Source of the DNA: Heterodontus francisci
Taxonomy: Eukaryota
Direction: 5' to 3'
Length of the DNA stretch: 64,000 nucleotides
Assembly (NCBI RefSeq): GCF_036365525.1
Contig: NC_090409.1
Location: 39,132,437 to 39,196,436 of the forward strand
The first letter of the stretch is position 1, and every line of letters begins with the position of its first letter. The notes under the pieces are model-generated. The model did not search any database, had not been told where the DNA came from, and saw only the letters and a program-made list of their open reading frames with translations. Positions 748 through 34,730 of the stretch are shown in pieces. Position numbers and translations under genes: made by a program.

Positions 748-817
748 CTTGGAGACATCCATCATGGTGTTGACTTGATCATGGAGTTTCCTCTGCCTCA
801 GTTTTGCCCTGCGGAAT
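748..817 (-). CDS. KCNN4: KCNN4-like exon 7
   Basis: cgtcag|[23 protein letters not shown]|gtaaca; 70 nt, phase 2/0. Confidence 0.92.
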
Positions 818-3800
818 CTGACGAGATGAGTTACACGTTAATCACGATTGCCTCATAAATCATTCAGCCGTGGCTCGGTGGGTGGCACTCTCTGCTCTGA
901 CTCAGGTTCAAGTCCCACACCAGAGACTGAAGCACAGAAATCGAGGCTGAAACTCCAGTGCAGTACTGAGGGAGTGCTGCACTGTCGGAGGGTCAGTACT
1001 GAGGGAGCGCTGCACTGTCGGAGGGTCAGTACTGAGGGAGCGCTGCACTGTCAAAGGGTCAGTACTGAGGGAGTGCTGCACTGTCGAAGGGTCCGTACTG
1101 AGGGAGCGCTGCACTGTCAAAGGGTCAGTACTGAGGGAGTGCTGCACTGTCGAAGGGTCCGTACTGAGGGAGCTCCGCACTGTCGGAGGGTCAGTACTGA
1201 GGGAGCTCTGCACTGTCGGAGTGTCAGTACTGAGGGAGTGCTGCACTATCGGAGGGTCAGTACTGAGGGAGTGCTGCACTGTCGGAGGGTCAGTACTGAG
1301 GGAGCTCTGCACTGTTGGAGTGTCAGTACTGAGGGAGTGCTGCACTGTCGGAGGGTCAGTACTGAGGGAGCTCTGCACTGTCGGAGGGTCAGTACTGAGG
1401 GAGTGCTGCACTGTCAGAGGGTCAGTACTGAGGGAGTGCTGCACTGTCAGAGGGTCAGTACTGAGGGAGCACTGCACTGTCGGAGGGTCAGTACTGAGGG
1501 AGCACTGCACTGTCGGAGGGTCAGTACTGAGGGAGTGCTGCACTGTCGGAGGGTCAGTACTGAGGGAGTGCTGCACTGTCGAAGGGTCAGTACTGAGGGA
1601 TTGCTGCAATGTCGGAGGGTCAGTACTGAGGGAGCACTGCACTGTCGGAGAGTCAGTACTGAGGGAGCGCCGCACTGTCGGAGGGTCAGTACTGAGGGAG
1701 TGCTGCACTGTCGGAGGTGCCGTCTTTCAGATGAGACATTAAGCCGAGGCCCCCGTCTGCCCTCTCAGGTGGGTGTAAAAGATCCCACAGCCACTATTTG
1801 GAAGAAGAGGAGGGGGAAGTTCTCACCGGTGTCCTGGGGACAATATTTATCCCTCAACCAGCATCACTAAAAAAACAGATGATCTGGGTCATTATCACAT
1901 TGCTGTTTGTGGGATCTTGCTGTGCGCACATTGGCTGCTGTGTTTCCTACGTTACAACAGTGAGCACACTTCCAAAAAAAGCCCTTCATTGTGTGAAGCC
2001 CTATGGGACGTCGTGAGGAAGTGAAAGGCACCAGAGAAATGGAAGTCTTTCTTTCTTCCTATGACTGCTGGACATGTATATCTGGATTCATGCATTGTGT
2101 TGTGATTGGTCTCTGATCTGTGTATCAGTTGGGCGATTGCAGGAGAACTGGAGCTGCCTCTGTCCTCAGAAAACCTGAGCTCGAGCAGAGATAAAGCCAG
2201 CCAGGGTTCCTGCCCCTGCTCGCTAAACATTCACCCCATGTGTGTACAGGATCAGGCTTCATTGTGATGCCCCACAGTCGAACAGCCCCCTGAAAATCAT
2301 TGCCCAGACTCTCAGGAGACGTGTCGTCATAATGATGGAATAAGGGACTCGATGGGAGAGTTAGGGGATTGGAAGGATGGTCTTCGATGGGAGAGTTAGG
2401 GGACCAGAGGGATGGTCTTCGATGGGAGAGTTAGGGGACTAGAGGGATGGTCTTCGATGGGAGAGTTAGGGGACTAGAGAGATGTTCTTCGATAGGAGAG
2501 TTAGGGGACTAGAGGGATGCTCTTCGATGGGAGAGTTAGGGGACTAGAGGGATGCTCTTCGATGGGAGAGTTAGGGGACGAGAGGGATGGTCTTCGATGG
2601 GAGAGTTAGGGGACTAGAGGGATGCTCTTCGATGGGAGAGTTAGGGGACTGGAGGTATGCTCTTCGATGGGAGAGTTAGGGGACTAGAGGGATGGTCTTC
2701 GATGGGAGAGTTAGGGGACTAGAGGGATAGTCTTCGATGGGAGAGTTAGGGGACTAGAGGGATGCTCTTCGATGAGAGAGTTAGGGGAGTAGAGGGATGG
2801 TCTTCGATGGGAGAGTTAGGGGACTGGAGGGATGCTTTTCGATGGGAGAGTTAGGGGACTAGAGGGATGGTCTTCGATGGGAGAGTTAGGGGACTAGAGG
2901 GATGGTCTTCGATGGGAGAGTTAGGGGACTAGAGGGATAGTCTTCGATGGGAGAGTTAGGGGACTAGAGGGATGCTCTTCGATGGGAGAGTTAGGGGAGT
3001 AGAGGGATGGTCTTCAATCGGAGAGTTAGGGGACTAGAGGGATGGTCTTCGATAGGTGAGTTAGGGGACTAGAGGGATGGTCTTCGATGGTAGAGTTAGG
3101 GGACTAGAGGGATGGTCTTCGATGGGAGAGTTAGGGGACTGGACGGATGCTCTTCGATGGTAGAGTTAGGGGACTGGAGGGATGGTCTTCAATGGGAGAG
3201 TGACGGGACTAAAGGGATGGTTTTTGATGGGAGAGTTACGGCAGTGGAGGGATGGTCTTTGATGGGAGAGTTAGGGGACTGGAAGGATGGTCTTCGATGG
3301 GAGATTGAGGGGACTAAAGGGATGGTTTTTGATGGGAGAGTTAGGGGACTGGAAGGATGGTCTTTGATGGGAGAGTTAGGGGACTGGAGGGATGGTCTTC
3401 GATGGGAGATTGAGGGGACTAAAGGGATGGTCTTCGATGGGAGATTGAGGGGACTAAAGGGATGGTCTTCGATGGGAGAGTTAGGGGACTGGAAGGATGG
3501 TCTTCGATGGGAGATTGAGGGGACTAAAGGGATGGTTTTTGATGGGAGAGTTAGGGGACTGGAGGGATGGTCTTCGATGGGAGATTGAGGGGACTAAAGG
3601 GATGGTTTTTGATGGGAGAGTTAGGGGACTAGAGGGATGGTCTTCGATGGGAGATTGAGGGGACTAAAGGGATGGTCTTCGATGGGAGAGTTAGGGGACT
3701 GGAGGGATTGGTGACGCTGCCTTTCCTTTTCTATTTCCATTCATGGGATGTGGGTGTCACTGGCAAGGCCGGTATTTATTGTCCATCCAGAGACGCCCCT

Positions 3801-6800
3801 TGTGAAGGTGGAGCTGGGTCTTCTTGAACCGTTTCAGTCCCGTGTGGTGAAGGTGCTCCCACGGTACCGTTAGGGAGGGAGATCCAGGATTTTGACCCAG
3901 TGACGATGAAGGAATGGCCGATATATCTCCAAGTTGGGACGGTGTGTGTGTGACTCAGAGGAGAACATGGAGGCGATGGTTTTCCCATGCTCCTGCTGCC
4001 CTTGTCCCTGCCTTCAATCAGTGAACGCAGCAGAGGCCATGGATGGAATCTGGGATGTCTGTGGCCTGGGCGGCTCAATGCCGCAGCGAGTAACAGGGCA
4101 GTCACCCACCCAGTGAGTGGAACACAGGGGAACATCTTCACCAGCTAACATTACAGCGGATTGTGTGGTTCACTCACCCACAAATTGCAGAAAGCACATC
4201 GCGCTGATACTTCCTGATCTTGTGCACATTTCTGTTCTTCTTTTGTTTGTACAACAGCCAAGCCACTCTAATCAAGTCAGCAGCAGTCTTCTGGACCTGG
4301 CACCAGATAAATAGCACAGTGTTGAAGAGGGAACCTCATCAATATAACCTTAAATAGCATCACCAGTGTTTGGTTATCAGCATCTCTTTCAAAAATGGAG
4401 GCTCACGCTGACACTCCCATCGAAGACCATCCCTCTAGTCCCCTAACTATCCCATCGAAGACCATCCCTCTAGTCCCCTAAATCTCCCATCGAAGACCAT
4501 CCCTCCAGTCCCCTAACTCTCCCATCGAAGACCATCCCTCTAGTCCCCTAACTCTCCCATCGAAGACCATCCCTCTAGTCCCCTAACTATCCCATCGAAG
4601 ACCATCCCTCTAGTCCCCTAAATCTCCCATCGAAGACCATCCCTCCAGTCCCCTAACTCTCCCATCGAAGACCATCCCTCTAGTCCCCTAACTCTCCCAT
4701 CGAAGACCATCCCTCTAGTCCCCTAACTCTCCGATCGAAGAGCATCCCTCCAGTCTCCTAACTCTCCCATCGAAGACCATCCCTCTAGTCCCCTAACTCT
4801 CCCATCGAAGAGCATCCCTCCAGTCCCCTAACTCTCCCATCGAAGACCATCCCTCTAGTCCCCTAACTCTCCCATCGAAGACCATCCTTCTAGTCCCCTA
4901 ACTCTCCCATCGAAGACCATCCCTCTGGTCCCCTAACTATCCTGTCGAAGACCATCCCTCTAGTCCCCTAACTATCCTGTCGAAGACCATCCCTCCAGTC
5001 CCCTAACTCTCCCATCGAAGACCATCCCTCCAGTCCCCTAACTCTCCCGTCGAAGACCATCCCTCCAGTCCCCTAACTCTCCCGTCGAAGACCATCCCTC
5101 CAGTCCCCTAACTCTCCCATCGAAGACCATCCCTCTAGTCCCCTAACTCTCCCATCGAAGACCATTCCTCTAGACCCCTAACTCTCCCATCGAAGACCAT
5201 CCCTGTAGTCCCCTAACTCTCGCATCGAAGACCATCCCTCCAGTCCCCTAACTCTCCGATCGAAGACCATCCCTCCAGTCCCCTAACTCTCCCGTCAAAA
5301 ACCATCTCTCCAGTCCCCTAACTCTCCCATCGAAGACCATCCCTCCAGTCCCCTAACTCTCCCATCGAAGACCATCCCTCCAGTCCCCTAACTCTCCCAT
5401 CGAGGACCATCCCTCCAGTCCCCTAACTCTCCCATCGAAGACCATCCCTCTAGTCCCCTAACTCTCCCATCGAAGAGCATCCCTCCAGTCCCCTAACTCT
5501 CCCATCGCAGACCATCCTCTAGTCTCCTAACTCTCCCATCGAAGACCATCCCTCCAGTCCCCTAACTCTCCCATCGAAGACCATCCCTCCAGTCCCCTAA
5601 CTCTCCCATCAAAGACCATCCCTCCAGTCCCCTAACTCTCCCATCGAAGACCATCCCTCTAGTCCCTTAACTCTCCCATCGAAGACCATCCCTCTAGTCC
5701 CCTAACACTCCCATCGAAGACCATCCCTCCTGTCCCCTAACTCTCCCATCGAAGACCATCCCTCCAGTCCCCTAACTCTCCCATCGAAGACCATCCCTGT
5801 AGTCCCCTAACTCTCGCATCGAAGACCATCCCTCCAGTCCCCTAACTCTCCCATCGAAGACCATCCCTCCAGTCCCTAACTCTCCCATCGAAGCGCATCC
5901 CTCCAGTCCCCTAACTCTCCCATCGAAGACCATCCCTCCAGTCCCCTAACTCTCCCGTCGAAGACAATCCCTCCAGTCCCCTAACTCTCCCGTCGAAGAC
6001 CATCCCTCCAGTCCCCTAACTCTCCCATCGAACACCATCCCTCTAGTCCCCTAACTCTCCCATCGAAGACCATTCCTCTAGTCCCCTAACTATCCTGTTG
6101 AAGACCATCCCTGCAGTCCCCTAACTCTCCGATCGAAGACCATCTTTCCAGTCCCCTAACTCTCCCGTCAAAGACCATCTCTCCAGTCCCCTAACTCTCC
6201 CATCGAAGACCATCCCTCCAGTCCCCTAACTCTCCCATCGAAGACCATCCCTCCAGTTCCCTAACTCTCCCATCGAAGACCATCCCTCCAGTCCCCTAAC
6301 TCTCCCATCGAAGACCATCCCTCTAGTCCCCTAACTCTCCCATTGAAGAGCATCCCTCCAGTCTCCTAACTCTCCCATCGAAGACCATCCCTCCAGTCCC
6401 CTAACTCTCCCATCGAAGACCATCCCTCCAGTCCCCTAACTCTCCCATCGAAGACCATCCCTCCAGTCCCCTAACTCTCCCATCGAAGACCATCCCTCTA
6501 GTCCCCTAACTCTCCCATCGAAGACCATCCCTCTAGTCCCCTAACTCTCCCATCGAAGAGCATCCCTCCAGTCCCCTAACTCTCCCATCGCAGACCATCC
6601 CTCTAGTCTCCTAACTCTCCCATCGAAGACCATCCCTCCAGTCCCCTAACTCTCCCATCGAAGACCATCCCTCCAGTCCCCTAACTCTCCCATCGAAGAC
6701 CATCCCTCCAGTCCCCTAACTCTCCAATCGAAGACCATCCCTCTAGTCCCCTAACTCTCCCATCGAAGACCATCCCTGTAGTCCCCTAACTCTCGCATCG

Positions 6801-9800
6801 AAGACCATGCCTCCAGTCCCCTAACTCTCCCATCGAAGACCATCCCTCCAGTCCCCTAACTCTCCCATCGAAGACCATCCCTCCAGTCCCTAACTCTCCC
6901 ATCGAAGAGCATCCCTCCAGTCCCCTAACTCTCCCATCGAAGACCATCCCTCCAGTCCCCTAACTCTCCCGTCGAAGACCATCCCTCCAGTCCCCTAACT
7001 CTCTCGTCGAAGACCATCCCTCCAGTCCCCTAACTCTCCCATCGAAGACCATTCCTCTAGTCCCCTAACTCTCCCATCGAAGACCATCCCTCTAGTCCCC
7101 TAACTATCCTGTCGAAGACCATCCCTCTAGTCCCCTAACTATCCTGTCGAAGACCATCCCTCCAGTCCCCTAACTCTCCGATCGAAGACCATCCCTCCAG
7201 TCCCCTAACTCTCCCGTCAAAGACCATCTCTCCAGTCCCCTAACTCTCCCATCGAAGACCATCCCTCCAGTCCCCTAACTCTCCCATCGAAGACCATCCC
7301 TCCAGTCCCCTAACTCTCCCATCGAAGACCATCCCTCCAGTCCCCTAACTCTCCCATCGAAGACCATCCCTCTAGTCCCCTAACTCTCCCATCGAAGAGC
7401 ATCCCTCCAGTCCCCTAACTCTCCCATCGCAGACCATCCCTCTAGTCTCCTAACTCTCCCATCGAAGACCATCCCTCCAGTCCCCTAACTCACCCATCGA
7501 AGACCATCCCTCAGGTCCCCTAACTCTCCCATCGAAGACCATCCCTCCAGTCCCCTAACTCTCCCATCGAAGACCATCCCTCCAGTCCCCTAACTCTCCC
7601 ATCGAAGACCAGCCCTCTAGTCCCCTAACTCTCCCATCGAAGACCATCCCTCCTGTCCCCTAACTCTCCCATCGAAGACCATCCCTCTAGTCCCCTAACT
7701 CTCCCATCGAAGACCATCCCTGTAGTCCCCTAACTCTCGCATCGAAGACCATCCCTCCAGTCCCCTAACTCTCCCATCGAAGACCATCCCTCCAGTCCCC
7801 TAACTCTCCCATCGAAGAGCATCCCTCCAGTCCCCTAACTCTCCCATCGAAGAACATCCCTCCAGTCCCCTAACTCTCCCATCGAAGAGCATCCCTCTAG
7901 TCCCCTAACTCTCCCATCGAAGAGCATCCCTCCAGTCCCCTAACTCTCCCATCGAAGACCATCCCTCTAGTCTCCTAACTCTCCCATCGAAGACCATCCC
8001 TCCAGTCCCCTAACTCTCCCGTCGAAGACCATCCCTCCAGTCCCCTAACTCTCCCGTCGAAGACCATCCCTCCAGTCCCCTAACTCTCCCGTCGAAGACC
8101 ATTCCTCTAGTCCCCTAACTCTCCCATCGAAGACCATCCCTCTAGTCCCCTAACTATCCTGTCGAAGACCATCCCTCTAGTCCCCTAACTATCCTGTCGA
8201 AGACCATCCCTCCAGTCCCCTAACTCTCCGATCGAAGACCATCGCTCCAGTCCCCTAACTCTCCCGTCAAAGACCATCTCTCCAGTCCCCTAACTCTACC
8301 ATCGAAGACCATCCCTCCAGTCCCCTAACTCTCCCATCGAAGACCATCCCTCCAGTCCCCTAACTCTCCCATCGAAGACAATCCCTCCAGTCCCCTAACT
8401 CTCCCATCGAAGACCATCCCTCTAGTCCCCTAACTCTCCCATCGAAGAGCATCCCTCCAGTCCCCTAACTCTCCCATCGCAGACCATCCCTCTAGTCCCC
8501 TAACTCTCCCATCGAAGACCATCCCTCCAGTCCCCTAACTCTCCCATCGAAGACCATCCCTCCAGTCCCCTAACTCTCCCATCGAAGACCATCCCTCTAG
8601 TCCCCTCACTCTCCCATCGAAGACCATCCCTCTAGTCCCCTAACTCTCCCATCGAAGACCATCCCTCCTGTCCCCTAACTCTCCCATCGAAGACCATCCC
8701 TCTAGTCCCCTAACTCTCCCATCGAAGACCATCCCTGTAGTCCCCTAACTCTCGCATCGAAGACCATCCCTCCAGTCCCCTAACTCTCCCATCGAAGACC
8801 ATCCCTCCAGTCCCCTAACTCTCCCATCGAAGACCATCCCTCCAGTCCCTAACTCTCCCATCGAAGAGCATCCCTCCAGTCCCCTAACTCTCCCATCGAA
8901 GAACATCCCTCAGTCCCTAACTCTCCCATCGAAGACCATCCCTCTAGTCTCCTAACTCTCCCATCGAAGACCATCCTTCCAGTCTCCTAACTCTCCCATC
9001 GAAGACCATCCCTCCAGTCCCCTAACTCTCCCATCGAAGACCATCCCTCTAGTCTCCTAACTCTCCCATCGAAGACCATCCTTCCAGTCCCCTAACTCTC
9101 CCATCGAAGACCATCCCTCCAGTCCCCTAACTCTCCCATCGAAGACCATCCCTCTAGTCCCCTAACTCTCCCATCGAAGACCATCCCTCTAGTCCCCTAA
9201 CTCTCCCATCGAAGACCATCCCTCCTGTCCCCTAACTCTCCCATCGAAGACCATCCCTCTGGTCCCTAACTCTCCCATCGAAGACCATCCCTCTAGTCCC
9301 CTAACTCTCGCATCGAAGACCATCCCTCCAGTCTCCTAACTCTCCCATCGAAGACCATCCATTCAGTCCCCTAACTCTCCCATTGAAGACCATCCCTCCA
9401 GTCCCCTAACTCTCCCATCGAAGACCATCCCTCTAGTCCCCTAACTCTCCCATCGAAGACCATCCCTCCAGTCCCCTAACTCTCCCATCGAAGACCATCC
9501 CTCCAGTCCCCTAACTCTCCCATCGAAGACCATCCCTCCAGTCCCCTAACTCTCGCATCGAAGACTATCCCTCCAGTCCCCTAACTCTCGCATCGAAGAC
9601 CATCCATCCAGTCCCCTAACTCTCCCATCGAAGACCATCCATCTAGTCCCCTAACTCTCCCATCGAAGACCATCCCTCTAGTCCCCTAACTCTCCCATCG
9701 AAGACCATCCATCCAGTCCCCTAACTCTCCCATCGAAGACCATCCATCCAGTCCCCTAACTCTCCCATTGAAGACCATCCCTCCAAATCCCTAACTCTCC

Positions 9801-12800
9801 CATCGAAGACCATCCCTCTAGTCCCTAACTCTCCCATTGAAGACCATCCCTCCAAATCCCTAACTCTCCCATCGAAGACCATCCCTCTGGTCCCTAACTC
9901 TCCCATTGAAGACCATCCCTATTGCCTCTCAGTGACACACTTCACATTCCTGTACGACCTTATTCAAGTTCTTCTGGATGCAATAGTTGGAGGCGGTCGC
10001 ATCGTGCTAATATCATTGGACCAGTAATCCAGAGGACCAGGCTAATGCTTTGGGGACATGGGTTCGAACCCCACCAGGGCACCTGGTGAAATTCGAATTC
10101 AGTAATCAAGCTGGAATTAAAAGGTTGTCTAATGGTGACGATGAAACCACTGCCGATTGTTCACTCATGTCTGTTCGGGAAGGAAATCCGCTGACCTTAC
10201 CCGGTCTGGCCTACATGTGACTCCAGACCCACAGTAATGGTGGTTGACTTTAACTGCCCTCTGAAATGGCCCAGCAAGCCATTCAGTTAGTGGGCAGCTC
10301 ACCACCACCTTCTCGAGGGCAATTAGGGATGGGCAGTAAATGCTGGCATGGCCAGCGACGCCCACGTCCCATCAATGAATAAAAAATAAATCCTAACTGA
10401 CTGCATCCCCGCACCTCCTACCCTGGTTCACCATCTGTCTGACTCCTCACCTCCTTCACAAGCTGGATGTCCTGCATGAAATTATGGACGTGTTTTTCAT
10501 CCTTGCTCAGCTCCATCTTCTTGGCAATCACGGCGATGAATAAAGCCGTGCAGGTAACACCCTTTGGGAAGCAAACACGGAGCTGGGTTATACTTCACTT
10601 GCACCTTCAGTGCCCCACACAAACATAAAAAGAAAGACTTGCATTTCTAGAACACCTTTCACAACCTCAGGGTACCCCAAATGCTTAATAACCAACTATT
10701 TTGATGTGCAGACATCCGAACCTCTGTTGCCCCCATGTCTTAACTCGCACCTGGTCCCAATTCCCCCGTCACCCCCTGTTACTCACTGACCTACACTGGC
10801 TCCCGGTCCAGGAACACCTCCCATCTTAAAATTCACATCCTTGTTTTCAAATCCCTCCACGGTCTCCTCGCCCCCTCCATATCTCTGTAACCGCCTCCAG
10901 TCCCTACACCTTTCCCTATCTCTGTAACCTCCGCCAGCCCCTACACCTTTCCCTATCTCTGTAACCTTCTCCAGTCCCGACACCTTTCCCTATCTCTGTA
11001 ACCTCCGCCAGCCCCTACACCTTTCCCTATCTCTGTAACCGCCTCCAGTCCCGACACCTTTCCCTATCTCTGTAACCTCCGCCAGCCCCTACACCTTTCC
11101 CTATCTCTGTAACCGCCTCCAGTCCCGACACCTTTCCCTATCTCTGTAACCTCCGCCAGCCCCTACACCTTTCCCTATCTCTGTAACCTCCTCCAGTCCC
11201 GACACCTTTCCCTATCTCTGTAACCTACTCCAGTCCCTACACCCCTCCCTATCTCTGTAACCTCCACCAGCCCCGACACCTTTCCCTATCTCTGTAACCT
11301 CCGCCAGCCCCTACACCTTTCCCTATCTCTGTAACCTCCGCCAGCCCCTACAACCCTCCCTATCTCTGTAACCTCCTCCAGTCCCTAAACCTTTCCCTAT
11401 CTGTGTAACCTCCTCCAGCCCCGACACCTTTCCCTATCTCTGTAACCTCCTCCAGCCCCTCCAACCCTCCGAGATCTCTGCACTCCTCCAATTCCGGCCT
11501 CTCGCCCATCCCCCAATTCCCATCGCTCCACCATTGGCGGCCGTGCCTTCAGCTGCCTGGGGCCCTAAGCTCTGGAATTCCCTCCCTAAACCTCTCCCCC
11601 TCTCTCTCTCCACCTTTGAGACGCTCTTTAAAAACCGACCTCTTTGACCGAGTTTTTGGTCATCGGTCCCTAATATCTCCTGATGTGGCTCGGGGTCAAA
11701 TTTGTCTGATTTACGCTCCTGTGAAGCACTCTGGGAAGTTTTACTAAAGTTAAAAGGGTGCTAAAAAAATGCAAATGGTTGTTGCTGTCATGTAAGGAAG
11801 ATAGCCAGCAATTTGTGCACAGCAAGATCCCACAAACAGCAATGTGATAATGACCCAGATTATCTGGTTTTTTTTAGTGATGTTGGTTGAGGGATAAATA
11901 TTGTCCCCAGGACACCGGGGAGAACTCCCCCCCCCTGCTCTTCTTCCAAATAGTGGCCGTGGGATCTTTTACACCCACCCGAGAGCTGTTTTCGTTTTGA
12001 CCTTGGAATTCTTTCTGAGGATTTGAAGTATTTTTAATTTCTTGGTTTGCTGTGCGTGTGCATGCTTCAATGTGATTGGCTCCTTAGCTGCTTGCTGACA
12101 TCACTGCTGCTGCATGCCCGAAGATCCCTTGATTTAAACCGCCACCGGGAGAAAGGAGATTGCGAGGTCTTTGCGGGCTGCTTTCTCTGAGGGCTTTAAC
12201 AAGCAGACGAGTGACAACCCCAACCACTAACTGCAGAAGCTAACATAGTCCGAGTGAAACAACTTGCTCTTACCGTAACCCCTATCATCAGGCAGATGAA
12301 CTTGCCGCACGTGGAATCTGGAACCATGTCTCCGTAGCCGATGGTGAAAAAGGTGATCGGGATGAGCCACATTGAAGCGATGAAGTTCAGCGTGCTGTTA
12401 AGGCAACGTTGCCTGTGGGATACGGGGAGAGGGGTGGGGGGTGGGTACGAGAGGAGGCAAGCGTCAGTGGATCCACAAACTCCGCACATCAGGGACATGA
12501 CTCATGAGACGAATAACCGCGCGATCTATCAACGTGAAGAAGGAAAGGAATGCGAGAAAGAAAGAGTCGGTGTTTGTGTGCGTTTGTGCGGACGTTGGGG
12601 GGGGGGGGGAGGTTGTAATTCATCACTGGGCTCGGACCGTGATGCATTTCATGGTCGAATAGCTCCCTGACACTATTTGGGCTCGCGCACAGAAATGTCT
12701 CGTCGGGGCAGCACCCAAACACGAGGGCATGTTGACAAAACGTAATGAGATCGCGGCTGACCTGCGATCTAACTCCCTATTCCCGCCTTTGCCCCGTATC

Positions 12801-15800
12801 CCTCAATAACTTTGGCGAACAGAAACCTCTGAGTTCTGATGAAGGGTCGCACGACCTGAAACGTTAACTCTGCTTCTCTCTCCACAGGGGCTGCCCGACC
12901 TGCTGAGTATTTCCGGCACTTTCTGCCCTTTATTTCAGAATCCCAGCATCGGCTGTATTTTGCTCTTATTACAATCGATCGAGCTCAGATTTAAAATTAA
13001 TCACTGATCCAGACATCGATTCCCGTTTGCGGAAAAGAATTTCCAAACTTCTCCCGCCCTTTGTGTGTGGAAGTGTTTCCGAATTTCACTCCTAATTTTT
13101 CGACTCGGCCCCCAAACCAGCGGGAATAGTTTCTCGCTATCGACCCTATCGGTTCCCCCTTCATATCCCAAAATCTTCGATCAAATCACCCCTTAAACCA
13201 TCTAAATTCCAGGGAATGCAACCCGGGTTTGTGTAATCCCTCCTCGTAATTTAACCCTTTGAGTCCCGGTGTCATTGCTGTCGACCATTGCTTGTCAGGG
13301 GAGCGCTCAAACAAAAGGCATCCCGTTAGGTCATTTACCTCTCGCACAGGCTCAGCATCCACGAGGCGACGAACCAAATGAGGAAGATGAGGAGAAAGAG
13401 AATCTTGCCTGGGCAACTGTTCATGAGAATCTTCAAGACAAAGTGGAACCTGAGGTTAATCCTGTTGAGGGAGCCGATGGTTCGATAGGACGGGTTGAGG
13501 ACCTCACTGTACATGAAGATGACTCGCTGAACCAAGTAGACGCGAAGGAACATTACATTGGACAGGACGATGGCAGTGTTGGACAGGATTGGGTCGGAGG
13601 TCCCAGGGAACGCGAGGGGAAATGGGTGGGCAGCGCACACCAGCAGCTCCAGGGTCACGGAAAGCTTCCTCTTCCGGGTCAGGGCCACCCTCCACTCTTC
13701 GACCCCCTCGTCGATCATGAAAAGCTGAGACAGAATTAATGACAGAAACAGTCAACCAACGGGGCAGGTGCTGATGGAAGTGGTTCGTAAGAATGAAAGG
13801 AAGCACAGGAGCAGGTCCTTCAGCCCCGCGCGCTCGTTCCATCATTCATCGCAACATAGGAACAGGAGGAGGCCATTCTGCCCTCGTACCCGGGGTGGGG
13901 AGGCAATCCCACCATCCTATTAGATCATGCCTAATCTGTAATTTAACTCCTTTGTGCCTTAACCCTTAATCCCCTCAGCCAAGAAAAATCTCAGCTTTTA
14001 AGACTCAGTTTAACCACTCACCCAAAAGGTGTGGCCGATGCAGCTAAGTAAATACACATATATGCATATATATATATATATATAAGATGAAAGTGTAGCA
14101 ACATATTGTTACAAAATGGGGTATTTACCCAAGGCATTGTGGGACAAGTTAGTTAGCTTGCAGCCTTGAGCATGGTACTGCTTAGCACAGGCAATTAGCC
14201 TGACCAAGGAGGGCCCCTCATATCAGTGCATAAGACAGCTGCTCTGTTTAATTGAGGACTACGCAAAGCAACTAGGAATGCAGGCCTGATAGAGGTAGAA
14301 GGATTCATTGTGAAGACTCAAGGATAGTTGATAAGGGGGGGTTTGGTAAACAAGCTGAGATGGTCAGGGGCGTACCACGAGCTACCCCCACAACCACATG
14401 ATGCATGATTAATAATTTTATTGGTAATGAACGTAATATATGTAATCAATAACCGTTATGATTGGATTATGTCCAGCCGGGATGGGCTGAGTAACTGTAT
14501 ATCTGTTGTGGATTTTCCTTTGTTCGGTGGAGAGGCATCTGGACAGCCCAGTGACCTGCTCCCCGCTGGCGTAACTCAATAAACTATTTGACATTGGAGC
14601 AGACCTAAGTGTCGAGTGATTCTGCCAGATTCATTCTCGCTAACAATACTGACCCTCCGACAGTGCAGCACTCCCTCAGTACTGACTCTCCGACAGTGCA
14701 GTGCTCCCTCAGTACTGACCCTCTGACAGTGCAGTGCTCTCTCAGTACTGACCCTCCGACAGTGCAGCACTCCGTCAGTACTGACCCTCCGACAGTGCAA
14801 AGAACAAACAAAGAACAACAAAGAACAATGAACAAAGAAAATTACAGCACAGGAACAGGCCCTTCGGCCCTCCAAGCCTGCGCCGATCCAGATCCTCTAT
14901 CTAAACCTGTCGCCTATTTTCTAAGGGTCTGTATCTCTTTACTTCCTGCCCATTCATGTGTCTGTCTAGATACATCTTAAAAGACGCTATCGTGCCCGCG
15001 TCTACCACCTCCGCTGGCAAGGCGTTCCAGGCACCCACCACCCTCTGCGTAAAGAACTTTCCACGCATATCCCCCCTAAACTTTTCCCCTCTCACTTTGA
15101 ACTCGTGTCCCCTCGTAATTGAATCCCCCACTCTGGGAAAAAGCTTCTTGCTATCCACCCTGTCTATACCTCTCATGATTTTGTACACCTCAATCAGGTC
15201 CCCCCTCAACCTCCGTCTTTCTAATGAAAATAATCCTAATCTGCTCAACCTCTCTTCATAGCTAGCGCCCTCCATACCAGGCAACATCCTGGTGAACCTC
15301 CTCTGCACCCTCTCCAAAGCATCCACATCCTTTTGATAATGTGGCGACCAGAACTGCACGCAGTATTCCAAATGTGGCCGAACCAAAGTCTTATACAACT
15401 GTAACATGACCTGCCAACTCTTGTACTCAATACCCCGTCCGATGAAGGAAAGCATGCCGTATGCCTTCTTGACCACTCTATTGACCTGCGTTGCCACCTT
15501 CAGGGAACAATGGACCTGAACACCCAAATCTCTCTGTACATCAATTTTCCCCAGGACTTTTCCATTTACTGTATAGTTCACTCTTGAATTGGATCTTCCA
15601 AAATGCATCACCTCGCATTTGCCCTGATTGAACTCCATCTGCCATTTCTCTGCCCAACTCTCCAATCTATCTATATTCTGCTGTATTCTCTGACAGTCCC
15701 CTTCACTATCTGCTACTCCACCAATCTTAGTGTCGTCTGCAAACTTGCTAATCAGACCACCTATACTTTCCTCCAAATCATTTACATATATCACAAACAA

Positions 15801-18800
15801 CAGTGGTCCCAGCACGGATCCCTGTGGAACACCACTGGTCACACGTCTCCATTTTGAGAAACTCCCTTCCACTGCTACTTTCTGTCTCCTGTTGCCCAGC
15901 CAGTTCTTTATCCATCTAGCTAGTACACCTTGGACCCCATGCGACTTCACTTTCTCCATCAGCCTACCATGGGGAACCTTATCAAACGCCTTACTGAAGT
16001 CCATGTATATGACATCTACAGCCCTTCCCTCATCAATCAACTTTGTCACTTCCTCAAAGAATTCTATTAAGTTGGTAAGATATGACCTTCCCTGCACAAA
16101 CCCATGTTGCCTATCACTGATAAGCACATTTTCTTCCAAATGGGAATAGATCCTATCCCTCAGTATCTTCTCCAGCAACTTCCCTACCACTGACGTCAGG
16201 CTCACCGGTCTATAATTACCTGGATTATCCCTGCTACCCTTCTTAAACAAGGGGACAACATTAGCAAATCTCCAGTCCTCCGGGACCTCACCCGTGTTTA
16301 AGGATGCTGCAAAGATATCTGTTAAGGCCCCAGCTATTTCCTCTCTCGCTTCCCTCAGCAACCTGGGATAGACACCATCCGGACCTGGGGACTTGTCCAC
16401 CTTAATGCCTTTTAGAATACCCAACACTTCCTCCCTCCTTATGCCGACTTGACCTAGAGTAATCAAACATCTGTTCCTAACCTCAACATCCTTCATGTCC
16501 CTCTCCTCGGTGAATACTGAATAGTGAGTACTCGTTTAAAATCTCACCCATTTTCTCTGACTCCACGCATAACTTTCCTCCTTTGTCCTTGAGTGGGCCA
16601 ATCCTTTCTCTAGTTACCCTCTTGCTCCTTATATATGAATAAAAGGCTTTGGGATTTTCCTTAACCCTGTTTGCTAAAGATATTTCATGACCCCTTTTAG
16701 CCCTCTTAATTCCTCGTTTCAGATTGGTCCTACATTCCCGATATTCTTCCAAAGCTTCGTCTTTCTTCAGCCGCCTAGACCTTATGTATGCTTCCTTTTT
16801 CCTCTTAGCTAGTTTCACAATTTCACCTGTCATCCATGGTTCCCTAATCTTGCCGTTTCTATCCCTCATTTTCACAGGAACATGTCTCTCCTGCACGCTA
16901 ATCAACCTCTCTTTAAAAGCCTCCCACATATCACATGTGGATTTATCTTCAAACAGCTGCTCCCAATCTACATTCCCCAGCTCCTGCCGAATTTTGGTAT
17001 AGTTGGCCTTCCCCCAATTTAGCACTCTTCCTTTAGGACCACTCTCGTCTTTGTCCATGAGTATTCTAAAACTTACGGAATTGTGATCACTATTCCCAAA
17101 GTAGACCCCTACTGAAACGTCAACCACCTGGCCGGGCTCATTCCCCAACACCAGGTCCAGTATGGCCCCTTCCCGAGTTGGACTATTTACATACTGCTCT
17201 AGAAAACCCTCCTGGATGCTCCTTACAAATTCTGCTCCATCTAGCCCTCTAACACTAAGTGAATCCCAGTCAATGTTGGGAAAATTAAAATCTCCTATCA
17301 CCACCACCCTGTTGCTCCTACATCTTTCCATAATCTGTTTACATATTTGTACCTCTATCTCATGCTCGCTGTTGGGAGGCCTGTAGTACAGCCCCAACAT
17401 TGTTACCGCACCCTTCCTATTTCTGCCGAAGGACTGTCACCAGCACCTCATGTGAACTGCTCCTATCTCCTGAGTGCATCTGCAGCCTGTGAAAAGCTGA
17501 GATAAACTAGCCTGTCCACATTGTGTCAGCGATACAGATTATCTGGGCTTCTCACACACACGCACACACACACACACACATACAGCTACTGTACCCATTT
17601 CACAAGAAGCAGTGCACGATGTACTCATGCGGAAGGTAACGTGATTTCAGCAGGTGATTGTATCAAATTATTGTGTACATAAATTCTATTGGCACCGCCC
17701 TGGGGCAAAGCTGCTCATGAGAGCAAAGTTAACCGTTTCAACATTCTCTCGAAGACTTCTACACTCCCTCAGATAAAACAGGAGATATGTTCCAGGGATG
17801 TGGGCGTCGCTGGTCAGGCCAGCATTTATTGCCCATCCCTAATTGCCCTTGAGAAGGTGGTGAGGTGGTGGTGAGCTGCCTTCTTGAACCGCTGCAGTCC
17901 ATGTGGGGTAGGTACACCCACAGTGCTGTTAGGGAGGGAGTTCCAGGATTTTGACCCAGCGACAGTGAAGGAACGGCGATATAGTTCCAAGTCAGGATGG
18001 TGTGTGACTTGGAGGGGAACTTGCAGGTGGTGGTGTTCCCATGCATCTGCTGCCCTTGTCCTTCTAGTTGGGAGAGGTCACGGGTTTGCTGTCGTAGGAG
18101 CCTCGGTGCGTGGCTGCAGGGACTGGACCCCAGTACATGGGGCAGTAAAGGGTTAAAATGGTTACCAATGTCAAAATTACCTGAATATCCCTCATGTGAT
18201 AAGCCAGTATTAGGCCAAGCAGTAGGACAGTAGAAACTGTGCTGGAAACACTGACTGTAATCAGAACCAACTGTTAAATAAAAAGAGACAAATACATTCA
18301 GAATGAGAAAAGGAAATGATTTAACATGTTCATACATGACACGGCTGTACCTGTACCAGACACTAGCTGCATCCTGACCCTTCCAAGATATGTCGACAAT
18401 TCAATTCAGAGGTCAATCTTGTTATATCTCAGTGACATGTATATTAGAACCTTGCAAATTGATCATCAGTAAATACTAACACATTGCCCGGGGACCCCCT
18501 GTAAATACTGACACACTCCCCGGGGACCCCCTGTAAATACTGACACACTCCCCGGGGACCCCCTGTAAATACTGACACACTCCCCGGGGACCCCCTGTAA
18601 ATACTGACACACTCCCGGGGACCCCCTGTAAATACTGACACACTCCCGGGGACCCCCTGTAAATACTGACACACTCCCGGGGACCCCCTGTAAATACTGA
18701 CACACTCCCGGGGACCCCCTGTAAATACTGACACACTCCCCGGGGATCCCCTGTAAATACTGACACACTCCCCGAGGACCCCCTGTAAATACTGACACAC

Positions 18801-21800
18801 TCCCGGGGACCCCCTGTAAATACTGACACACTCCCCGGGGATCCCCTGTAAATACTGACACACTCCCCGGGGATCCCCTGTAAATACTGACACACTCCCC
18901 GGGGACCCCCTGTAAATACTGACACACTCCCGGGGACCCCCTGTAAATACTGACACACTCCCGGGGACCCCCTGTAAATACTGACACACTCCCCGGGGAT
19001 CCCCTGTAAATACTGACACACTCCCCGGGGACCCCCTGTAAATACTGACACACTCCCCGGGGACCCCCTGTAAATACTGACACACTCCCGGGGACCCCCT
19101 GTAAATACTGACACACTCCCGGGGACCCCCTGTAAATACTGACACACTCCCGGGGACCCCCTGTAAATACTGACACACTCCCGGGGACCCCCTGTAAATA
19201 CTGACACACTCCCCGGGGATCCCCTGTAAATACTGACACACTCCCCGAGGACCCCCTGTAAATACTGACACACTCCCGGGGACCCCCTGTAAATACTGAC
19301 ACACTCCCCGGGGATCCCCTGTAAATACTGACACACTCCCCGGGGATCCCCTGTAAATACTGACACACTCCCCGGGGACCCCCTGTAAATACTGACACAC
19401 TCCCGGGGACCCCCTGTAAATACTGACACACTCCCGGGGACCCCCTGTAAATACTGACACACTCCCCGGGGATCCCCTGTAAATACTGACACACTCCCCG
19501 GGGACCCCCTGTAAATACTGACACACTCCCGGGTACCTCCTGTAAATACTGACACATTCCCGGGGACCCCCTGTAAATACTAACACATTGCCCGGGGACC
19601 CCCTGTAAATACTGACACACTCCCGGGGACCCCCTGTAAATACTGACACACTCCCGGGGACCCCCTGTAAATACTGACACACTCCCCGGGGATCCCCTGT
19701 AAATACTGACACACTCCCCGGGGACCCCCTGTAAATACTGACACACTCCCGGGTACCTCCTGTAAATACTGACACATTCCCGGGGACCCCCTGTAAATAC
19801 TAACACATTGCCCGGGGACCCCCTGTAAATACTGACACACTCCCGGGGACCCCCTGTAAATACTGACACACTCCCAGGGACCCCCTGTAAATACTGACAC
19901 ACTCCCGGGGACCCCCTGTAAATACTAACACATTGCCCGGGGACCCCCTGTAAATACTGACACACTCCCCGGGGACCCCCTGTAAATGCTGACACACTCC
20001 CTGGGGACCCCCTGTAAATACTGACACACTCCCCGGGGACCCCCTGTAAATACTGACACACTCCCGGAGACCCCCTGTAAATACTGACACACTCCCGGGG
20101 ACCCCCTGTAAATACTGACACACTCCCGGGGACCCCCTGTAAATACTGACACACTCCCCGGGGATCCCCTGTAAATACTGACACACTCCCCGGGGACCCC
20201 CTGTAAATACTGACACACTCCCCGGGGACCCCCTGTAAATACTAACACATTGCCCGGGGATCCCCTGTAAATACTGACACACTCCCGGGGACCCCCTGTA
20301 AATACTGACACACTCCCAGGGACCCCCTGTAAATACTGACACACTCCCGGGGACCCCCTGTAAATACTGACACACTCCCAGGGACCCCCTGTAAATACTG
20401 ACACACTCCCGGGGACCCCCTGTAAATACTGACACACTCCCGGGGACCCCCTGTAAATACTGACACACTCCCTGGGACCCCTGTAAATACTGACACACTC
20501 CCCGGGGACCCCCTGTAAATACTGACACACTCCCGGGGACCCCCTGTAAATACTGACACACTCCCCGGGGACCCCCTGTAAATACTGACACACTCCCTGG
20601 GACCCCTGTAAATACTGACACACTCCCCGGGGACCCCCTGTAAATACTGACACACTCCCCGGGGACCCCCTGTAAATACTGACACACTCCCTGGGACCCC
20701 TGTAAATACTGACACACTCCCTGGGACCCCTGTAAATACTGACACACTCCCCGGGGACCCCCTGTAAATACTGACACACTCCCCGGGGACCCCCTGTAAA
20801 TACTGACACACTCCCTGGGACCCCTGTAAATACTGACACACTCCCCGGGGACCCCCTGTAAATACTGACACACTCCCTGGGACCCCTGTAAATACTGACA
20901 CACTCCCCGGGGACCCCATGTAAATACTGACACACTCCCGGGGACCCCCTGTAAATACTGACACACTCCCCGGGGACCCCCTGTAAATACTGACACACTC
21001 CCGGGGACCCCCTGTAAATACTGACACACTCCCTGGGGACCCCCTGTAAATACTGACACACTCCCGGGGACCCCCTGTAAATACTGACACACTCCCGGGG
21101 ACCCCCTGTAAATACTGACACACTCCCCGGGGACCCCCTGTAAATACTGACACACTCCCGGGGACCCCTGTAAATACTGACACACTCCCCGGGGACCCCC
21201 TGTAAATACTGACACACTCCCGGGGACCCCCTGTAAATACTGACACACTCCCCGGGGACCTCCTGTAAATACTGACACACTCCCGGGGACCCCCTGTAAA
21301 TACTGACACACTCCCCGGGGACCCCCTGTAAATACTGACACATTGGCCCTGATATTAGAGTGGGGGAGTCGTGCACTAATGTGAGAAGGAGCTGGGGTTC
21401 CATTCGCAGGGAGGGAAGCACGGTGACAGGGGGGTGGGAAAAGGGGAAGTCCTCCTCTCCTCCTGGCCCACACTCAGTGCTGGAAAACCCTCACGTGCTG
21501 CAGCCGTCAGGCTGAAGTTGTAACCTCCTCTTCCCCTCCCCCAGGCCTCTCTGGTCCCCGACATGCGGTGCTGAAAATGATCCCCATCAAGTCACACTGC
21601 TGTCACACAGTTATGAAAAAGAAAATCTGCATCTCTCTGGGGCCTTTCCCCATCTCAGGACATCCCAAAGGGCTTCACAGACAATGAAGGGCTTTTTTCG
21701 GAAGTGTGCTGACTGTTGTAATGTCGGAAACACGGCAGCCAATTTTCACACAGGAAGATCCCACAAACAGCAATGTGATAATGACCCAGATCATCTGAGT

Positions 21801-30800: not shown

Positions 30801-31406
30801 GGGCGCCGGCAAGTTGGAACCCTATCCAGGAAGCGGCTTCATTGGCTGGAAAGTGCTCTGGCACGCCCGGAGGTGGGGAAAGGTGCTACAGAAATGCAAG
30901 TCTGTCTTTCTTAAAGCTGCGACCCGACGCTTTTGGAGAGAATTAACGGCTGATTCAGCGAGCGGGTAGTGGGGGGGGGGGCGGGTGGTGGGGGCAGGGG
31001 GGAATCAGATTGAGCCCGTGAGGCCCCATGTAGTCAAATAGCCCACTCCCAGGGGGGCGTGCCGCCCACCCTTTCCTTCTGGAAAAGAATTTCCTCTCTC
31101 TGAGGCAATAAACGTCAGGAAGCTGTCACTCACCGGTGGGTAGGTGCCGGCCAACGAGAGCTCCATGCTGGCCATCATGAGCCCGATGCCCAGTCCGGCC
31201 ACCAGCAGCGAGTAGGCACTCAGCCTCCTCTTGTACTCCACGATGCCCTTCCTCCGCTGCAGCCTGACGGCCAGGTCCGCCAGGGGGTCAACCGCCCTCT
31301 TCCTGGTATTCTGCCTCCCTGGCACGGTGCCGGGGGTCCGCGTTAGGTCTTCTCGGGGGAGTGGAGAGAGCTGCAGCTCGACCACTGTCACGTCAGGGTA
31401 GGACAT
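748..31406 (-). CDS. KCNN4: KCNN4-like intermediate-conductance Ca2+-activated K+ channel (KCa3.1/SK4); 7 coding exons in window, last exon off the left edge
   Basis: Exons 31134-31406, 18181-18270, 13339-13724, 12274-12412, 10451-10561, 4178-4296 and 748-817 join in frame with GT-AG sites and compatible phases. The product has 6 TM segments, pore TIGYGD and CaM-binding EKHVHNFM...[27 protein letters not shown], Thr before IGYG and GV.CTAL favour KCNN4 over KCNN1-3. Confidence 0.88.
864..2057 (+). mobile_element. Deu-domain SINE (SacSINE1/AmnSINE1-related) with expanded internal 33-bp array
   Basis: tRNA-like head, (agtactgagggagtgctgcactgtcggagggtc)n, Deu-type body gatgagacattaa..ccgaggcccc..gtaaaagatccca, tctt tail. 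Confidence 0.8.
2345..3708 (+). repeat. 35-bp minisatellite, G-rich orientation, about 39 copies
   Basis: Unit gatgggagagttaggggactagagggatggtcttc. Confidence 0.97.
3735..4010 (-). mobile_element. LINE 3'-end fragment
   Basis: Same 3' end as elements at 17790, 23685, 31875 and 41700. Confidence 0.7.
4178..4296 (-). CDS. KCNN4: KCNN4-like exon 6 (calmodulin-binding domain)
   Basis: tgccag|[40 protein letters not shown]|gtgagt; 119 nt, phase 0/2. Confidence 0.92.
4412..9920 (-). repeat. 35-bp minisatellite, inverted orientation, about 157 copies
   Basis: Unit gaagaccatccctctagtcccctaactctcccatc, the reverse complement of the 2345-3708 unit. Confidence 0.97.
9985..10390 (+). mobile_element. 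tRNA-derived SINE with LINE-derived 3' tail
   Basis: B-box ggttcgaacccc; tail cagctcaccaccaccttctc...atgaataaaa shared with the LINE 3' ends in this window. Confidence 0.75.
10451..10561 (-). CDS. KCNN4: KCNN4-like exon 5 (S6, HA helix)
   Basis: cccaaag|[37 protein letters not shown]|gtgagg; 111 nt; not in the ORF track. Confidence 0.93.
10740..11790 (+). mobile_element. L2-like LINE 3' fragment with internal 37-bp array (about 10880-11465)
   Basis: Degenerate LHWLPV...GGRAFS...LWNSLP; unit ccctacacctttccctatctctgtaacctccgccagc. Confidence 0.75.
11800..11985 (-). mobile_element. Deu-SINE body fragment
   Basis: Reverse complement of about 1770-1940. Confidence 0.75.
12274..12412 (-). CDS. 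KCNN4: KCNN4-like exon 4 (pore)
   Basis: cccacag|[46 protein letters not shown]|gtaaga; 139 nt, phase 2/0. Confidence 0.95.
12831..12870 (+). ncRNA. Minimal type I hammerhead ribozyme motif (Penelope-associated)
   Basis: GAGTT-CTGATGA-AGGGTC gcac GACCT-GAA-ACGT-T-AACTC: 5-bp stem I, intact core, stem II, palindromic ACGT in place of stem III. Confidence 0.7.
13339..13724 (-). CDS. KCNN4: KCNN4-like exon 3 (S3-S5)
   Basis: tctcag|[16 protein letters not shown]...[10 protein letters not shown]...[12 protein letters not shown]...WMLSLCER|gtaaat; 386 nt, phase 0/2. Confidence 0.93.
14107..14645 (+). mobile_element. Solo LTR
   Basis: TGTTA...TAACA termini, internal AATAAA near 14578, flanks ATAT/ATAC; 3' part matches 59016-59150 in reverse. 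Confidence 0.7.
14646..14798 (-). repeat. Short 33-bp Deu-SINE array remnant
   Basis: (actgaccctccgacagtgcagcactccctcagt)n. Confidence 0.85.
14799..17425 (-). mobile_element. Young 5'-truncated CR1/HER1-type LINE (partial endonuclease plus RT)
   Basis: ORFs 16483-17400 (GDFN, SDHN) and 14901-16496 ([23 protein letters not shown]) with one frameshift; microsatellite tail. Confidence 0.95.
17790..18085 (-). mobile_element. LINE 3'-end fragment
   Basis: Near-identical to 23690-23975 and 41715-42000. Confidence 0.8.
18181..18270 (-). CDS. KCNN4: KCNN4-like exon 2 (S2)
   Basis: tttaacag|[30 protein letters not shown]|gtaatt; 90 nt, phase 0/0. Confidence 0.88.
18468..21345. repeat. 31-32-bp minisatellite, about 90 copies
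   Basis: Unit cc(c)cggggaccccctgtaaatactgacacact. Confidence 0.97.
21617..22700 (-). mobile_element. Deu-SINE with 33-bp array
   Basis: Reverse-complement copy of the 864-2057 family. Confidence 0.8.
23685..25085 (-). mobile_element. 5'-truncated LINE (RT C-terminal half)
   Basis: [21 protein letters not shown] peptides. Confidence 0.9.
25447..29500 (-). mobile_element. Near full-length degenerate CR1 LINE (ORF1 plus ORF2)
   Basis: ORF1: Cys-rich/coiled coil [15 protein letters not shown] and SGNH esterase [13 protein letters not shown]2: [30 protein letters not shown]. Many stops and frameshifts. Confidence 0.9.
29825..30610 (-). mobile_element. CR1 3' fragment
   Basis: [20 protein letters not shown]. 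Confidence 0.85.
31134..31406 (-). CDS. KCNN4: KCNN4-like coding exon 1 (N-terminus, S1)
   Basis: MSYPDV...[44 protein letters not shown], followed by donor GTGAGT, phase 0. The start codon choice is uncertain because there is another in-frame ATG at 31520. Confidence 0.85.
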
Positions 31407-32329: not shown

Positions 32330-33188
32330 AGAAAAAGACTTGCATTTCTCTAGCGCCTTTCATCACCTCAGGACGTCCCAAAGCGTTTCACAGACAATGA
32401 AGGACTTTCCAAGGGTCGTCACTGCTGTAATGCAGGAAACGCAGTGGCCAATTTTCACACAGCAAGATCCCAAAATCAGCAATAAGATAATGACACGGAT
32501 CAGCTGTTTTTTTTCATGATGTTGCTTGAGGGATAAATATTGTCCCCAGGACACCGGGGAGAACTCCCCCCCCTGCTCTTCTTCCAAATAGTGGCCGTGG
32601 GATCTTTTACACCCACCTGAGAGGGCAGACGGGGGCCTCGTTTAATGTCTCATCTGAAAGAGGCACCTCCGACAGTGCAGCACTCCCTCAGTACTGACCC
32701 TCGGACAGTGCGGCACTCCCTCAGTACTGACCCTCCGACAGTGCAGCACTCCCTCAGTACTGACCCTCCAACAGTGCAGCACTCCCTCAGTCCTGACCCT
32801 CCGACAGTGCGGCACTCCCTCAGTACTGACCCTCCGACAGTGCAGCACTCCCTCCATGCTGTCCCTCTGACAGTGCGGCGCTCCCTCAGTACTGACCCTC
32901 CGACAGTGCAGCACTCCCTCAGTACTGACCCTCCGACAGTGCGGCGCTCCCTCCGTGCTGTCCCTCTGACAGTGCGGCGCTCCCTCAGTACTGACCCTCC
33001 AACAGTGCGGCACTCCCTCAGTACTGACCCTCCGACAGTGCAGCACTCCCTCAGTGCTGTCCCTCTGACAGTGCAGCACTCCCTCAGTGCTGTCCCTCCG
33101 ACAGTGCAGCGTTCCCTCAGTACTGACCCTCCGACAGTGCAGCACTCCCTCAGCACTGACCCTCCGACAGTGCAGCACACCCTCAGTA
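32330..33188 (-). mobile_element. Deu-SINE with 33-bp array
   Basis: Same body and array as 864-2057. Confidence 0.8.
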
Positions 33189-34289: not shown

Positions 34290-34730
34290 TTACTGAGGGA
34301 GCGCCGCATTGTCGGAGGGTCAGGACTGAGGGAGTGCTGCACTGTTGGAGGGTCACTACTGGGGGAGTGCCGCACTGTCGGAGGGTCAGTACTGAGGGAG
34401 TGCCACACAGTCAGAGGGTCAGTACTGAGGGAGTGCCACACTGTCGGAGGGTCAGTACTGAGGGAGTGCTGCACTGTCGGAGGTGCCGTCTTTCAGATGA
34501 GACATTAAACCGAGGCCCCCGTCTGCCCTCTCAGGTGGGTGTAAAAGATCCCACGGCCACTATTTGGAAGAAGAGCGGGGGGGGGGGTAGTTCTCCCCGG
34601 TGTCCTGGGGACAATATTTATCCCTCAACCAACATCACTAAAAAAAAACAGATGATCTGGGTCATTATTACATTGTTGTTGGGATCTTGCTGTGTCTAAT
34701 GGCTGCTGCATCTCTGACATTACAACACGC
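34290..34730 (+). mobile_element. Deu-SINE (headless) with 33-bp array
   Basis: Array followed by Deu body. Confidence 0.8.

What the first reader, a model, noticed from the sequence alone, without database searches (positions are those of the whole stretch)
2345..9920. KCNN4 exon 6 sits in the loop of a large inverted minisatellite pair
Seen in sequence: the same 35-bp unit forms a 1.4-kb array (2345-3708) and a 5.5-kb array in the opposite orientation (4412-9920), with a ~700-nt spacer containing exon 6 (4178-4296, CaM-binding region). Established: inverted intronic repeats promote exon skipping, back-splicing and ADAR editing. Inference: the pre-mRNA can form over 1 kb of dsRNA in many registers. 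Skipping the 119-nt exon would frameshift, giving NMD or a Ca2+-insensitive subunit, so array length could tune channel output.
Basis: partly seen in the sequence, partly recalled or inferred. Interest (0 to 1): 0.7.

Follow-up and report, generated by a model that had tools for sequence, protein, structure and literature searches.

The report
Inverted minisatellites bracket shark KCNN4 exon
In a horn shark potassium-channel gene, two oppositely oriented arrays of a roving 35-base repeat (1.4 and 5.5 kb) bracket one exon, yet the main RNA still includes that exon, so the pair is likely a tolerated by-product of how this repeat spreads rather than a splicing switch.

Summary
Observation confirmed: 39 and 158 copies of one 35-bp unit, inverted and about 91% complementary, bracket the 119-nt calmodulin-binding exon 6 of horn shark KCNN4. 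The unit is a dispersed family: at least 30 arrays on 10 contigs, mostly with unrelated flanks. A ~60-nt seed inserted 0.5 kb from another array points to local templated seeding. A second inverted pair brackets an in-frame 66-nt ADAM exon. Spliced contigs include exon 6 in 3 of 3 runs and the ADAM exon in 4 of 4, with no back-splice joint (one individual; contigs hide rare forms). Skipping would put a stop only 31 nt before the last junction, so NMD is doubtful. Editing was untestable. Best reading: a tolerated by-product; a minor skipped, circular or edited form stays open. This scan had not noted this locus or family before; earlier notes reached similar 'passenger' verdicts for other minisatellites of this genome.

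The parts
2349..3708 (-). Array A: 39 copies of the 35-bp unit in KCNN4 intron 6; C-rich strand on the transcript; inner end 469 nt after the exon 6 donor
3721..4007 (-). 5'-truncated LINE-like 3' fragment in the spacer, 92-95% like copies in the cluster to the right of the window; array A starts about 25 nt after its tail
   Evidence: (very high depth)
4178..4296 (-). KCNN4 exon 6, 119 nt, calmodulin-binding region; included in spliced contigs
4414..9920 (+). Array B: 158 copies of the same unit, opposite orientation, in intron 5; G-rich strand on the transcript; ends about 115 nt before the exon 6 acceptor; has its own roughly 1-kb higher-order repeat
748..817 (-). KCNN4 exon 7 (70 nt); an exon 5-7 join would stop at its nt 39
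10451..10561 (-). KCNN4 exon 5 (111 nt)
12274..12412 (-). KCNN4 exon 4 (139 nt; pore GYG)
13339..13724 (-). KCNN4 exon 3 (386 nt)
18181..18270 (-). KCNN4 exon 2 (90 nt)
31134..31406 (-). KCNN4 first coding exon (the last exon lies about 9.2 kb left of the window)

Best explanation
Two inverted arrays of a dispersed 35-bp minisatellite bracket exon 6 of horn shark KCNN4, the main spliced RNA includes the exon, and the pair likely arose as a by-product: a one- or two-unit copy was likely pasted near an existing array by templated repair and then grew in tandem. Shown: the family is dispersed with mostly unrelated flanks; a short seed sits inside an older repeat 0.5 kb from another array; a second inverted pair brackets an ADAM exon; both exons are included in spliced contigs. 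Inferred: arrays A and B are sisters; orientation of a seed is arbitrary; exons end up in the loop because these arrays often lie near exons in gene-dense, repeat-filled DNA and because deleting or flipping a loop with an essential exon is selected against; inclusion survives because the splice signals lie 115 and 469 nt clear of the arms and exon 6 is likely committed, or intron 5 removed, before array A is made.
For: Family: 936 exact hits of a 20-mer, 92 in the window; 30 arrays of >=7 units on 10 contigs, flanks unrelated except two duplicated loci. Seed: L107:3401-3467, about 1.8 units inside a dispersed repeat whose 19 intact copies lack it, 1 nt lost, 2-nt microhomology at each end, 0.53 kb from a 64-unit array, direct orientation; an inverted single unit abuts the left C46 array through a short palindrome. 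Kinship: unit variant 14C>G in 13 of 155 units of B and 8 of 38 of A against 8 of 1357 in 26 other arrays (2 or more copies in 1 of 26) and 0 in two more. Second pair: L049 4195-4964/5365-5950 around a 66-nt in-frame exon of a reprolysin (ADAM) gene. Inclusion: 3 of 3 and 4 of 4 runs, no back-splice joint; 1 of 30 proteins listed is identical over exon 3, a full-length single-member cluster. Background: 35% and 46% minisatellite in 464 and 232 kb; 14 of 43 same-family pairs within 10 kb are inverted; a 69-bp family brackets a further exon-like frame.
Against: All RNA-like runs come from one individual and one study, are contigs, are RNA by the tool's guess (they do jump the introns), and would drop rare junctions, circles and intronic editing. 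Exon 6 is the only internal exon of the gene so bracketed, and the two 35-bp pairs are the two tightest inverted pairs in 0.70 Mb, both around an exon and with the same geometry on the transcript. The kinship variant was picked after the fact; by whole-profile distance A's nearest array is B, but A ranks only sixth for B, and the C46 pair shows no kinship. In primates such pairs do raise skipping (PMC13019944).
Confidence: 0.7

Rival explanations
1. The duplex forms on part of the transcripts and yields a minor exon-6-skipped mRNA, an exon 6 circle or edited introns. The skipped mRNA would likely escape NMD and give a subunit that keeps the pore but lacks the calmodulin-binding region, so array length could modestly tune channel output.
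For: Over 1.3 kb of 91% complementarity in many registers and 313 inter-array pairs in a 1405-nt fold; stop 31 nt before the last junction; Alu duplex minigenes changed inclusion by about 1 to over 40% (PMC13019944); 30-40 nt repeats suffice for circles (PMC4201285).
Against: No broken contig or back-splice joint in 3 of 3 runs; the in-frame ADAM exon, where NMD cannot hide skipping, is included in 4 of 4; hairpin stability does not predict circles (PMC4201285).
Confidence: 0.2
2. Array A acts as a row of decoy acceptors: each unit on the transcript reads like a branch point, a pyrimidine run and YAG about 27 nt later, and may draw part of the splicing from the exon 6 donor.
For: Unit sequence as seen; the consensus it is compared with is recalled.
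Against: Contigs join exon 6 straight to exon 7 in 3 of 3 runs; a nearer AG lies inside each unit; by eye, arrays of the family lie in both orientations on their host transcripts.
Confidence: 0.05
3. The orientation of array A is an assembly error.
For: Only one of four array ends was touched by a read contig, and by 27-29 nt only.
Against: No N in this part of the window; private variants exclude a mirror copy; the same geometry recurs at an unrelated locus.
Confidence: 0.03
4. The pair is a Foldback-type transposon with modular tandem-repeat arms.
For: Long inverted arms built of tandem units around a short loop, found twice.
Against: The loops are unrelated host exons in their native order and strand; 26 of 30 arrays have no inverted partner in the DNA fetched; no target-site duplication seen by eye.
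Confidence: 0.02

Closest known systems
Exon skipping by inverted intronic Alu duplexes, including TBXT (PMC13019944; parts 1-2 of 6 of the main text read)
   Same: Inverted complementary repeats in both introns next to one exon, close to the splice sites.
   Different: Arms are expandable minisatellite arrays of 1.4 and 5.5 kb that can pair in many registers, not 300-nt SINEs; no skipping seen here.
Circular RNA driven by short intronic inverted repeats (PMC4201285; passages read)
   Same: Back-splicing geometry around one exon.
   Different: No back-splice joint in contigs; the exon is only 119 nt; that paper finds hairpin stability a poor predictor.
Simple tandem repeat enrichment on small shark chromosomes and chromosome ends (10.1101/2022.10.17.512540 and 10.1101/2025.06.08.657570; passages read)
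   Same: Gene-dense, GC-rich regions of smaller chromosomes filled with tandem repeats.
   Different: The passages seen give bulk content only, not dispersed families, local seeding or exon-bracketing pairs.
Templated and fold-back insertions at DNA breaks in yeast (PMC11724301; abstract and outline only)
   Same: Short templated insertions with microhomology, direct or inverted, as in the L107 seed and the C46 palindromic junction.
   Different: Shown there at induced breaks in yeast; here inferred from junctions and followed by tandem growth.
Amphioxus 'mirage' minisatellites (PMC3087553; passages read)
   Same: Intronic minisatellites beside exons that leave normal splicing intact.
   Different: Mirages copy the host's own exon boundary in direct orientation; this unit is a dispersed family unrelated to the host exon, and inverted.

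Membership tests
KCNN4 (KCa3.1) | SK_channel, pore and CaMBD domains in one chain | tested here: met
KCNN4 (KCa3.1) | Divergent fourth KCNN gene, apart from the SK1-3 type | tested here: met
   4 KCNN loci in the genome, the other 3 at 45% over exon 3; tree of 17 rows sets it with shark IK-like proteins and teleost KCNN4 (100/99) apart from two own paralogues, with a long-branch warning; the C4 paralogue was not in the tree
KCNN4 (KCa3.1) | Short CaM-binding exon (119 nt against 128 nt) | tested here: met
   119 nt here, 128 nt in 2 of 2 paralogues checked; that 119 nt marks KCNN4 in mammals is recalled
KCNN4 (KCa3.1) | Synteny with PLAUR/LYPD genes (recalled) | tested here: inconclusive
   one Ly6/uPAR-type frame about 155 kb left, Pfam E 0.018 only
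Inverted-repeat-driven exon skipping | Complementary arms in both flanking introns | tested here: met
Inverted-repeat-driven exon skipping | Exon skipped in 5-95% of mRNA | tested here: inconclusive
   included in unbroken contigs in 3 of 3 runs; contigs drop rare forms, so only inclusion as the main form is shown
Inverted-repeat-driven exon skipping | Duplex in cells; removing an arm restores inclusion | not testable with these tools
   needs cross-linking data or a minigene
Repeat-driven circular RNA | Back-splice junction | tested here: inconclusive
   none among the 7 joints listed and none; library type not on record
ADAR hyper-edited inverted repeat | A-to-G clusters in the arms | not testable with these tools
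Foldback-type transposon | Long modular inverted arms | tested here: met
Foldback-type transposon | Arms and loop move as one unit, with a target-site duplication | tested here: not met
   loops are native, unrelated host exons; 26 of 30 arrays unpaired; no duplication seen by eye
Mirage minisatellite | Unit copies the host exon boundary | tested here: not met
   same unit at 30 arrays in unrelated genes

The most novel reading that the evidence does not exclude
A self-seeding shark minisatellite builds kilobase-scale, length-variable RNA stems around essential exons, and at KCNN4 the array length sets the level of an NMD-escaping, calmodulin-blind subunit: a repeat-length dial on channel output; or else sharks hold a splicing safeguard that makes such stems harmless.
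Probability: 0.1. Interest if true: 0.65.

Novelty: new variant of a known kind. Interest (0 to 1): 0.3.

Why it matters
If the best reading holds, it gives two natural cases in which 0.6-1.4 kb of about 91-93% complementary intron sequence, 115-470 nt from a short exon, does not displace that exon from the main mRNA: a useful limit on predicting skipping or circles from flanking inverted repeats. It also catches a minisatellite family spreading by short templated seeds, which helps explain how gene-dense shark chromosomes become 35-46% tandem repeat. If the rival holds, array length would be a heritable dial on a calcium-activated potassium channel.

Tried and rejected
Mirror-image misassembly: rejected on private variants. 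Locus-specific repeat: rejected, the family is dispersed. Carrier transposon with shared flanks: rejected. LINE-plus-array unit: 2 of 28 arrays start just after a LINE-like tail in an 85-nt window (background 0.17%; a third lies just outside; noticed after the fact), but the three LINE pieces are only 74-89% alike, so no common master. Polarity rule (C-rich strand starting at the end nearer an exon): 10 of 12 on a first by-eye pass, about 12 of 18 after more exon-like frames were seen (many exons judged by eye, 112 frames picked for Pfam from 367 listed); dropped. A second repeat-end motif at array starts: 0 of 28. No RNA holder is on record as RNA. Related genomes are not held for this window, so conservation in other sharks was not tested. 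The bamboo shark circRNA paper (PMC7759564, passages) gave nothing on flanking repeats. Literature searches for this arrangement or family found nothing specific; subscription papers are not covered and no supplements were read.
Full report
Observation. Array A matches array B at 91.5% over 1360 nt in the best ungapped register and about 91% in many others; the longest perfect duplex is 93 nt; a 1405-nt piece of the pre-mRNA strand folds with 313 pairs between the arrays. The arrays carry private unit variants (6 of 6 genome hits of an A motif in A, 6 of 6 of a B motif in B), so one is not a mirror copy of the other. A DNA contig runs from the spacer 27-29 nt into B as assembled, just short of the tool's bridging rule; the other three ends were not checked with reads.

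The gene. Exon 3 is identical to one listed protein, named by its source as KCNN4-like of horn shark (P0001; 1 of 30 proteins listed). All six internal exons have AG..GT ends. Exon 6 (4178-4296, 119 nt) lies inside Pfam CaMBD. The genome holds four KCNN loci; two paralogues checked have a 128-nt exon here, and a 17-row tree sets this gene with shark IK-like proteins and teleost KCNN4, with a long-branch warning.

The repeat is a dispersed family. One 20-mer has 936 exact hits, 92 of them in the window. Three listings, each cut at 100 rows, led to 30 arrays of 7 or more units on 10 contigs, 11 of them within 3.5 Mb on this chromosome; this is a lower bound. Flanks are unrelated except at two duplicated loci, so no carrier element was found. 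At L107 a seed of about 60 nt sits inside a dispersed repeat whose 19 intact copies lack it, with one base lost and 2-nt microhomology at each end, 0.53 kb from a 64-unit array and in direct orientation. At C46 a single inverted unit abuts an array through a short palindrome. These junctions resemble templated and fold-back insertions described in yeast (PMC11724301, abstract only); the mechanism in the shark is inferred. A and B share variant 14C>G (8 of 38 and 13 of 155 units) against 8 of 1357 units in 26 other arrays and none in two more. This was picked after the fact, and whole-profile distance supports it one way only (A's nearest is B; A is sixth for B), so sisterhood is likely, not proven.

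A second case. On C46 the same family forms an inverted pair (22 and 16 units, 417-nt gap, 92.7% alike) around a 66-nt in-frame exon of a reprolysin-type ADAM gene, with the same geometry on the transcript; these two arrays show no kinship signal. The surroundings are 35% (464 kb) and 46% (232 kb) minisatellite. Of 43 same-family pairs within 10 kb, 14 are inverted; of 10 within 2 kb, 4 are inverted, and the two 35-bp pairs are the tightest of these (the C46 region was chosen because it held the pair). A 69-bp family also brackets a cysteine-rich exon-like frame (weak Pfam only). Coding exons with Pfam support lie within about 1.2 kb of several single arrays too (Tim10, TNFAIP8, claudin-type and myosin clearly; EF-hand, LRR, apolipoprotein more weakly), so an exon in a short loop is not very surprising. 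Enrichment of tandem repeats on small shark chromosomes and chromosome ends is published (passages).

What the RNA shows. Three runs guessed to be RNA each hold one contig of 1668, 1407 or 1714 nt (depth 243, 21, 79) that covers exon 6 only, leaves the unique intron uncovered and runs on on both sides; the listed loose ends are exon 7 in 3 of 3 and exon 5 in 2 of 3 (the table was cut); none of the 7 listed joints is a back-splice. The ADAM exon, whose skipping would keep the frame and so escape NMD, is joined to both neighbours in contigs of 2.7-2.9 kb in 4 of 4 runs, with no joints. All runs are from one individual and one study, and contigs drop rare forms, so this shows inclusion as the main form and no more. 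Editing could not be tested.

The frameshift argument. An exon 5-7 join reads 12 new residues and stops at nt 39 of exon 7, 31 nt before the next junction. Exon 8 appears to be the last exon (and contigs run 550 nt past exon 6). By the recalled 50-55-nt rule this mRNA would likely escape NMD, which removes one excuse for not seeing it and makes a truncated subunit the more likely product if skipping occurs.

Mechanism. Shown: dispersed family, a local seed, two inverted exon-bracketing pairs, inclusion of both exons. Inferred: seeding in either orientation followed by tandem growth; retention because loss or inversion of the loop would remove an essential exon; inclusion because the arms stop 115 and 469 nt short of the splice sites and splicing commits co-transcriptionally. 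In primates inverted Alu pairs are linked to skipping, with minigene effects from about 1 to over 40% (PMC13019944, parts 1-2 of 6 read), and short repeats can drive circles although stability does not predict them (PMC4201285, passages); a minor effect here therefore stays open at about 0.2.

Novelty and score. Six literature searches found no account of this family or of minisatellite arms looping an exon; coverage is limited to the open library and no supplements were read. The architecture is a new variant of a known kind; its function, on present evidence, is likely none. Interest 0.3.

Noticed in passing
L107:3401-3467 (G000:C1104): About 1.8 units of the 35-bp repeat inserted into an older dispersed repeat with microhomology at both ends, 0.53 kb from a 64-unit array: a minisatellite caught at birth.
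   Followed up: yes
L049:4195-5950 (G000:C46): Second inverted pair of the same family around a 66-nt ADAM exon; one inverted unit abuts the left array through a palindrome.
   Followed up: yes
G000:C46:11552288-11559098 (L109): Inverted pair of a 69-bp minisatellite family (1.9 and 1.6 kb, 95% alike, 3.3-kb gap) around a cysteine-rich exon-like frame; resembles the end of DCST1 by recall only.
   Followed up: partly
window 3721-4007: LINE-like piece in the spacer, 92-95% like copies in the cluster to the right; without it the spacer would be about 425 nt, close to the 417 nt of the C46 pair.
   Followed up: partly
window 2349-9920: The unit's C-rich strand reads like branch point, pyrimidine run and YAG; its G-rich strand holds one telomere-type hexamer and G runs (consensus motifs recalled).
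   Followed up: no
window 44236-44550 (-): Immunoglobulin V-set exon (Pfam E 1.7e-10) of a neighbouring gene on the minus strand.
   Followed up: partly
window 961-1717, 14647-14799, 21965-22623, 32666-33188, 34291-34483: A 33-bp minisatellite tied to a fixed flank of a dispersed element, in both orientations; 32666-33188 and 34291-34483 form an inverted pair 1.1 kb apart with no clear exon between.
   Followed up: partly
L006:7266-7637 (-): Ly6/uPAR-type frame about 155 kb left of the window (weak Pfam).
   Followed up: partly
G000:C39:38990196-39009291 and 39084961-39109577; C46:11457078-11481738: Giant arrays of 19-25 kb; the C46 one shares its 32/33-bp unit with window 18469-21342.
   Followed up: no
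P0006: An annotated epaulette shark isoform of this gene lacks the 37 residues of exon 5, not exon 6.
   Followed up: no
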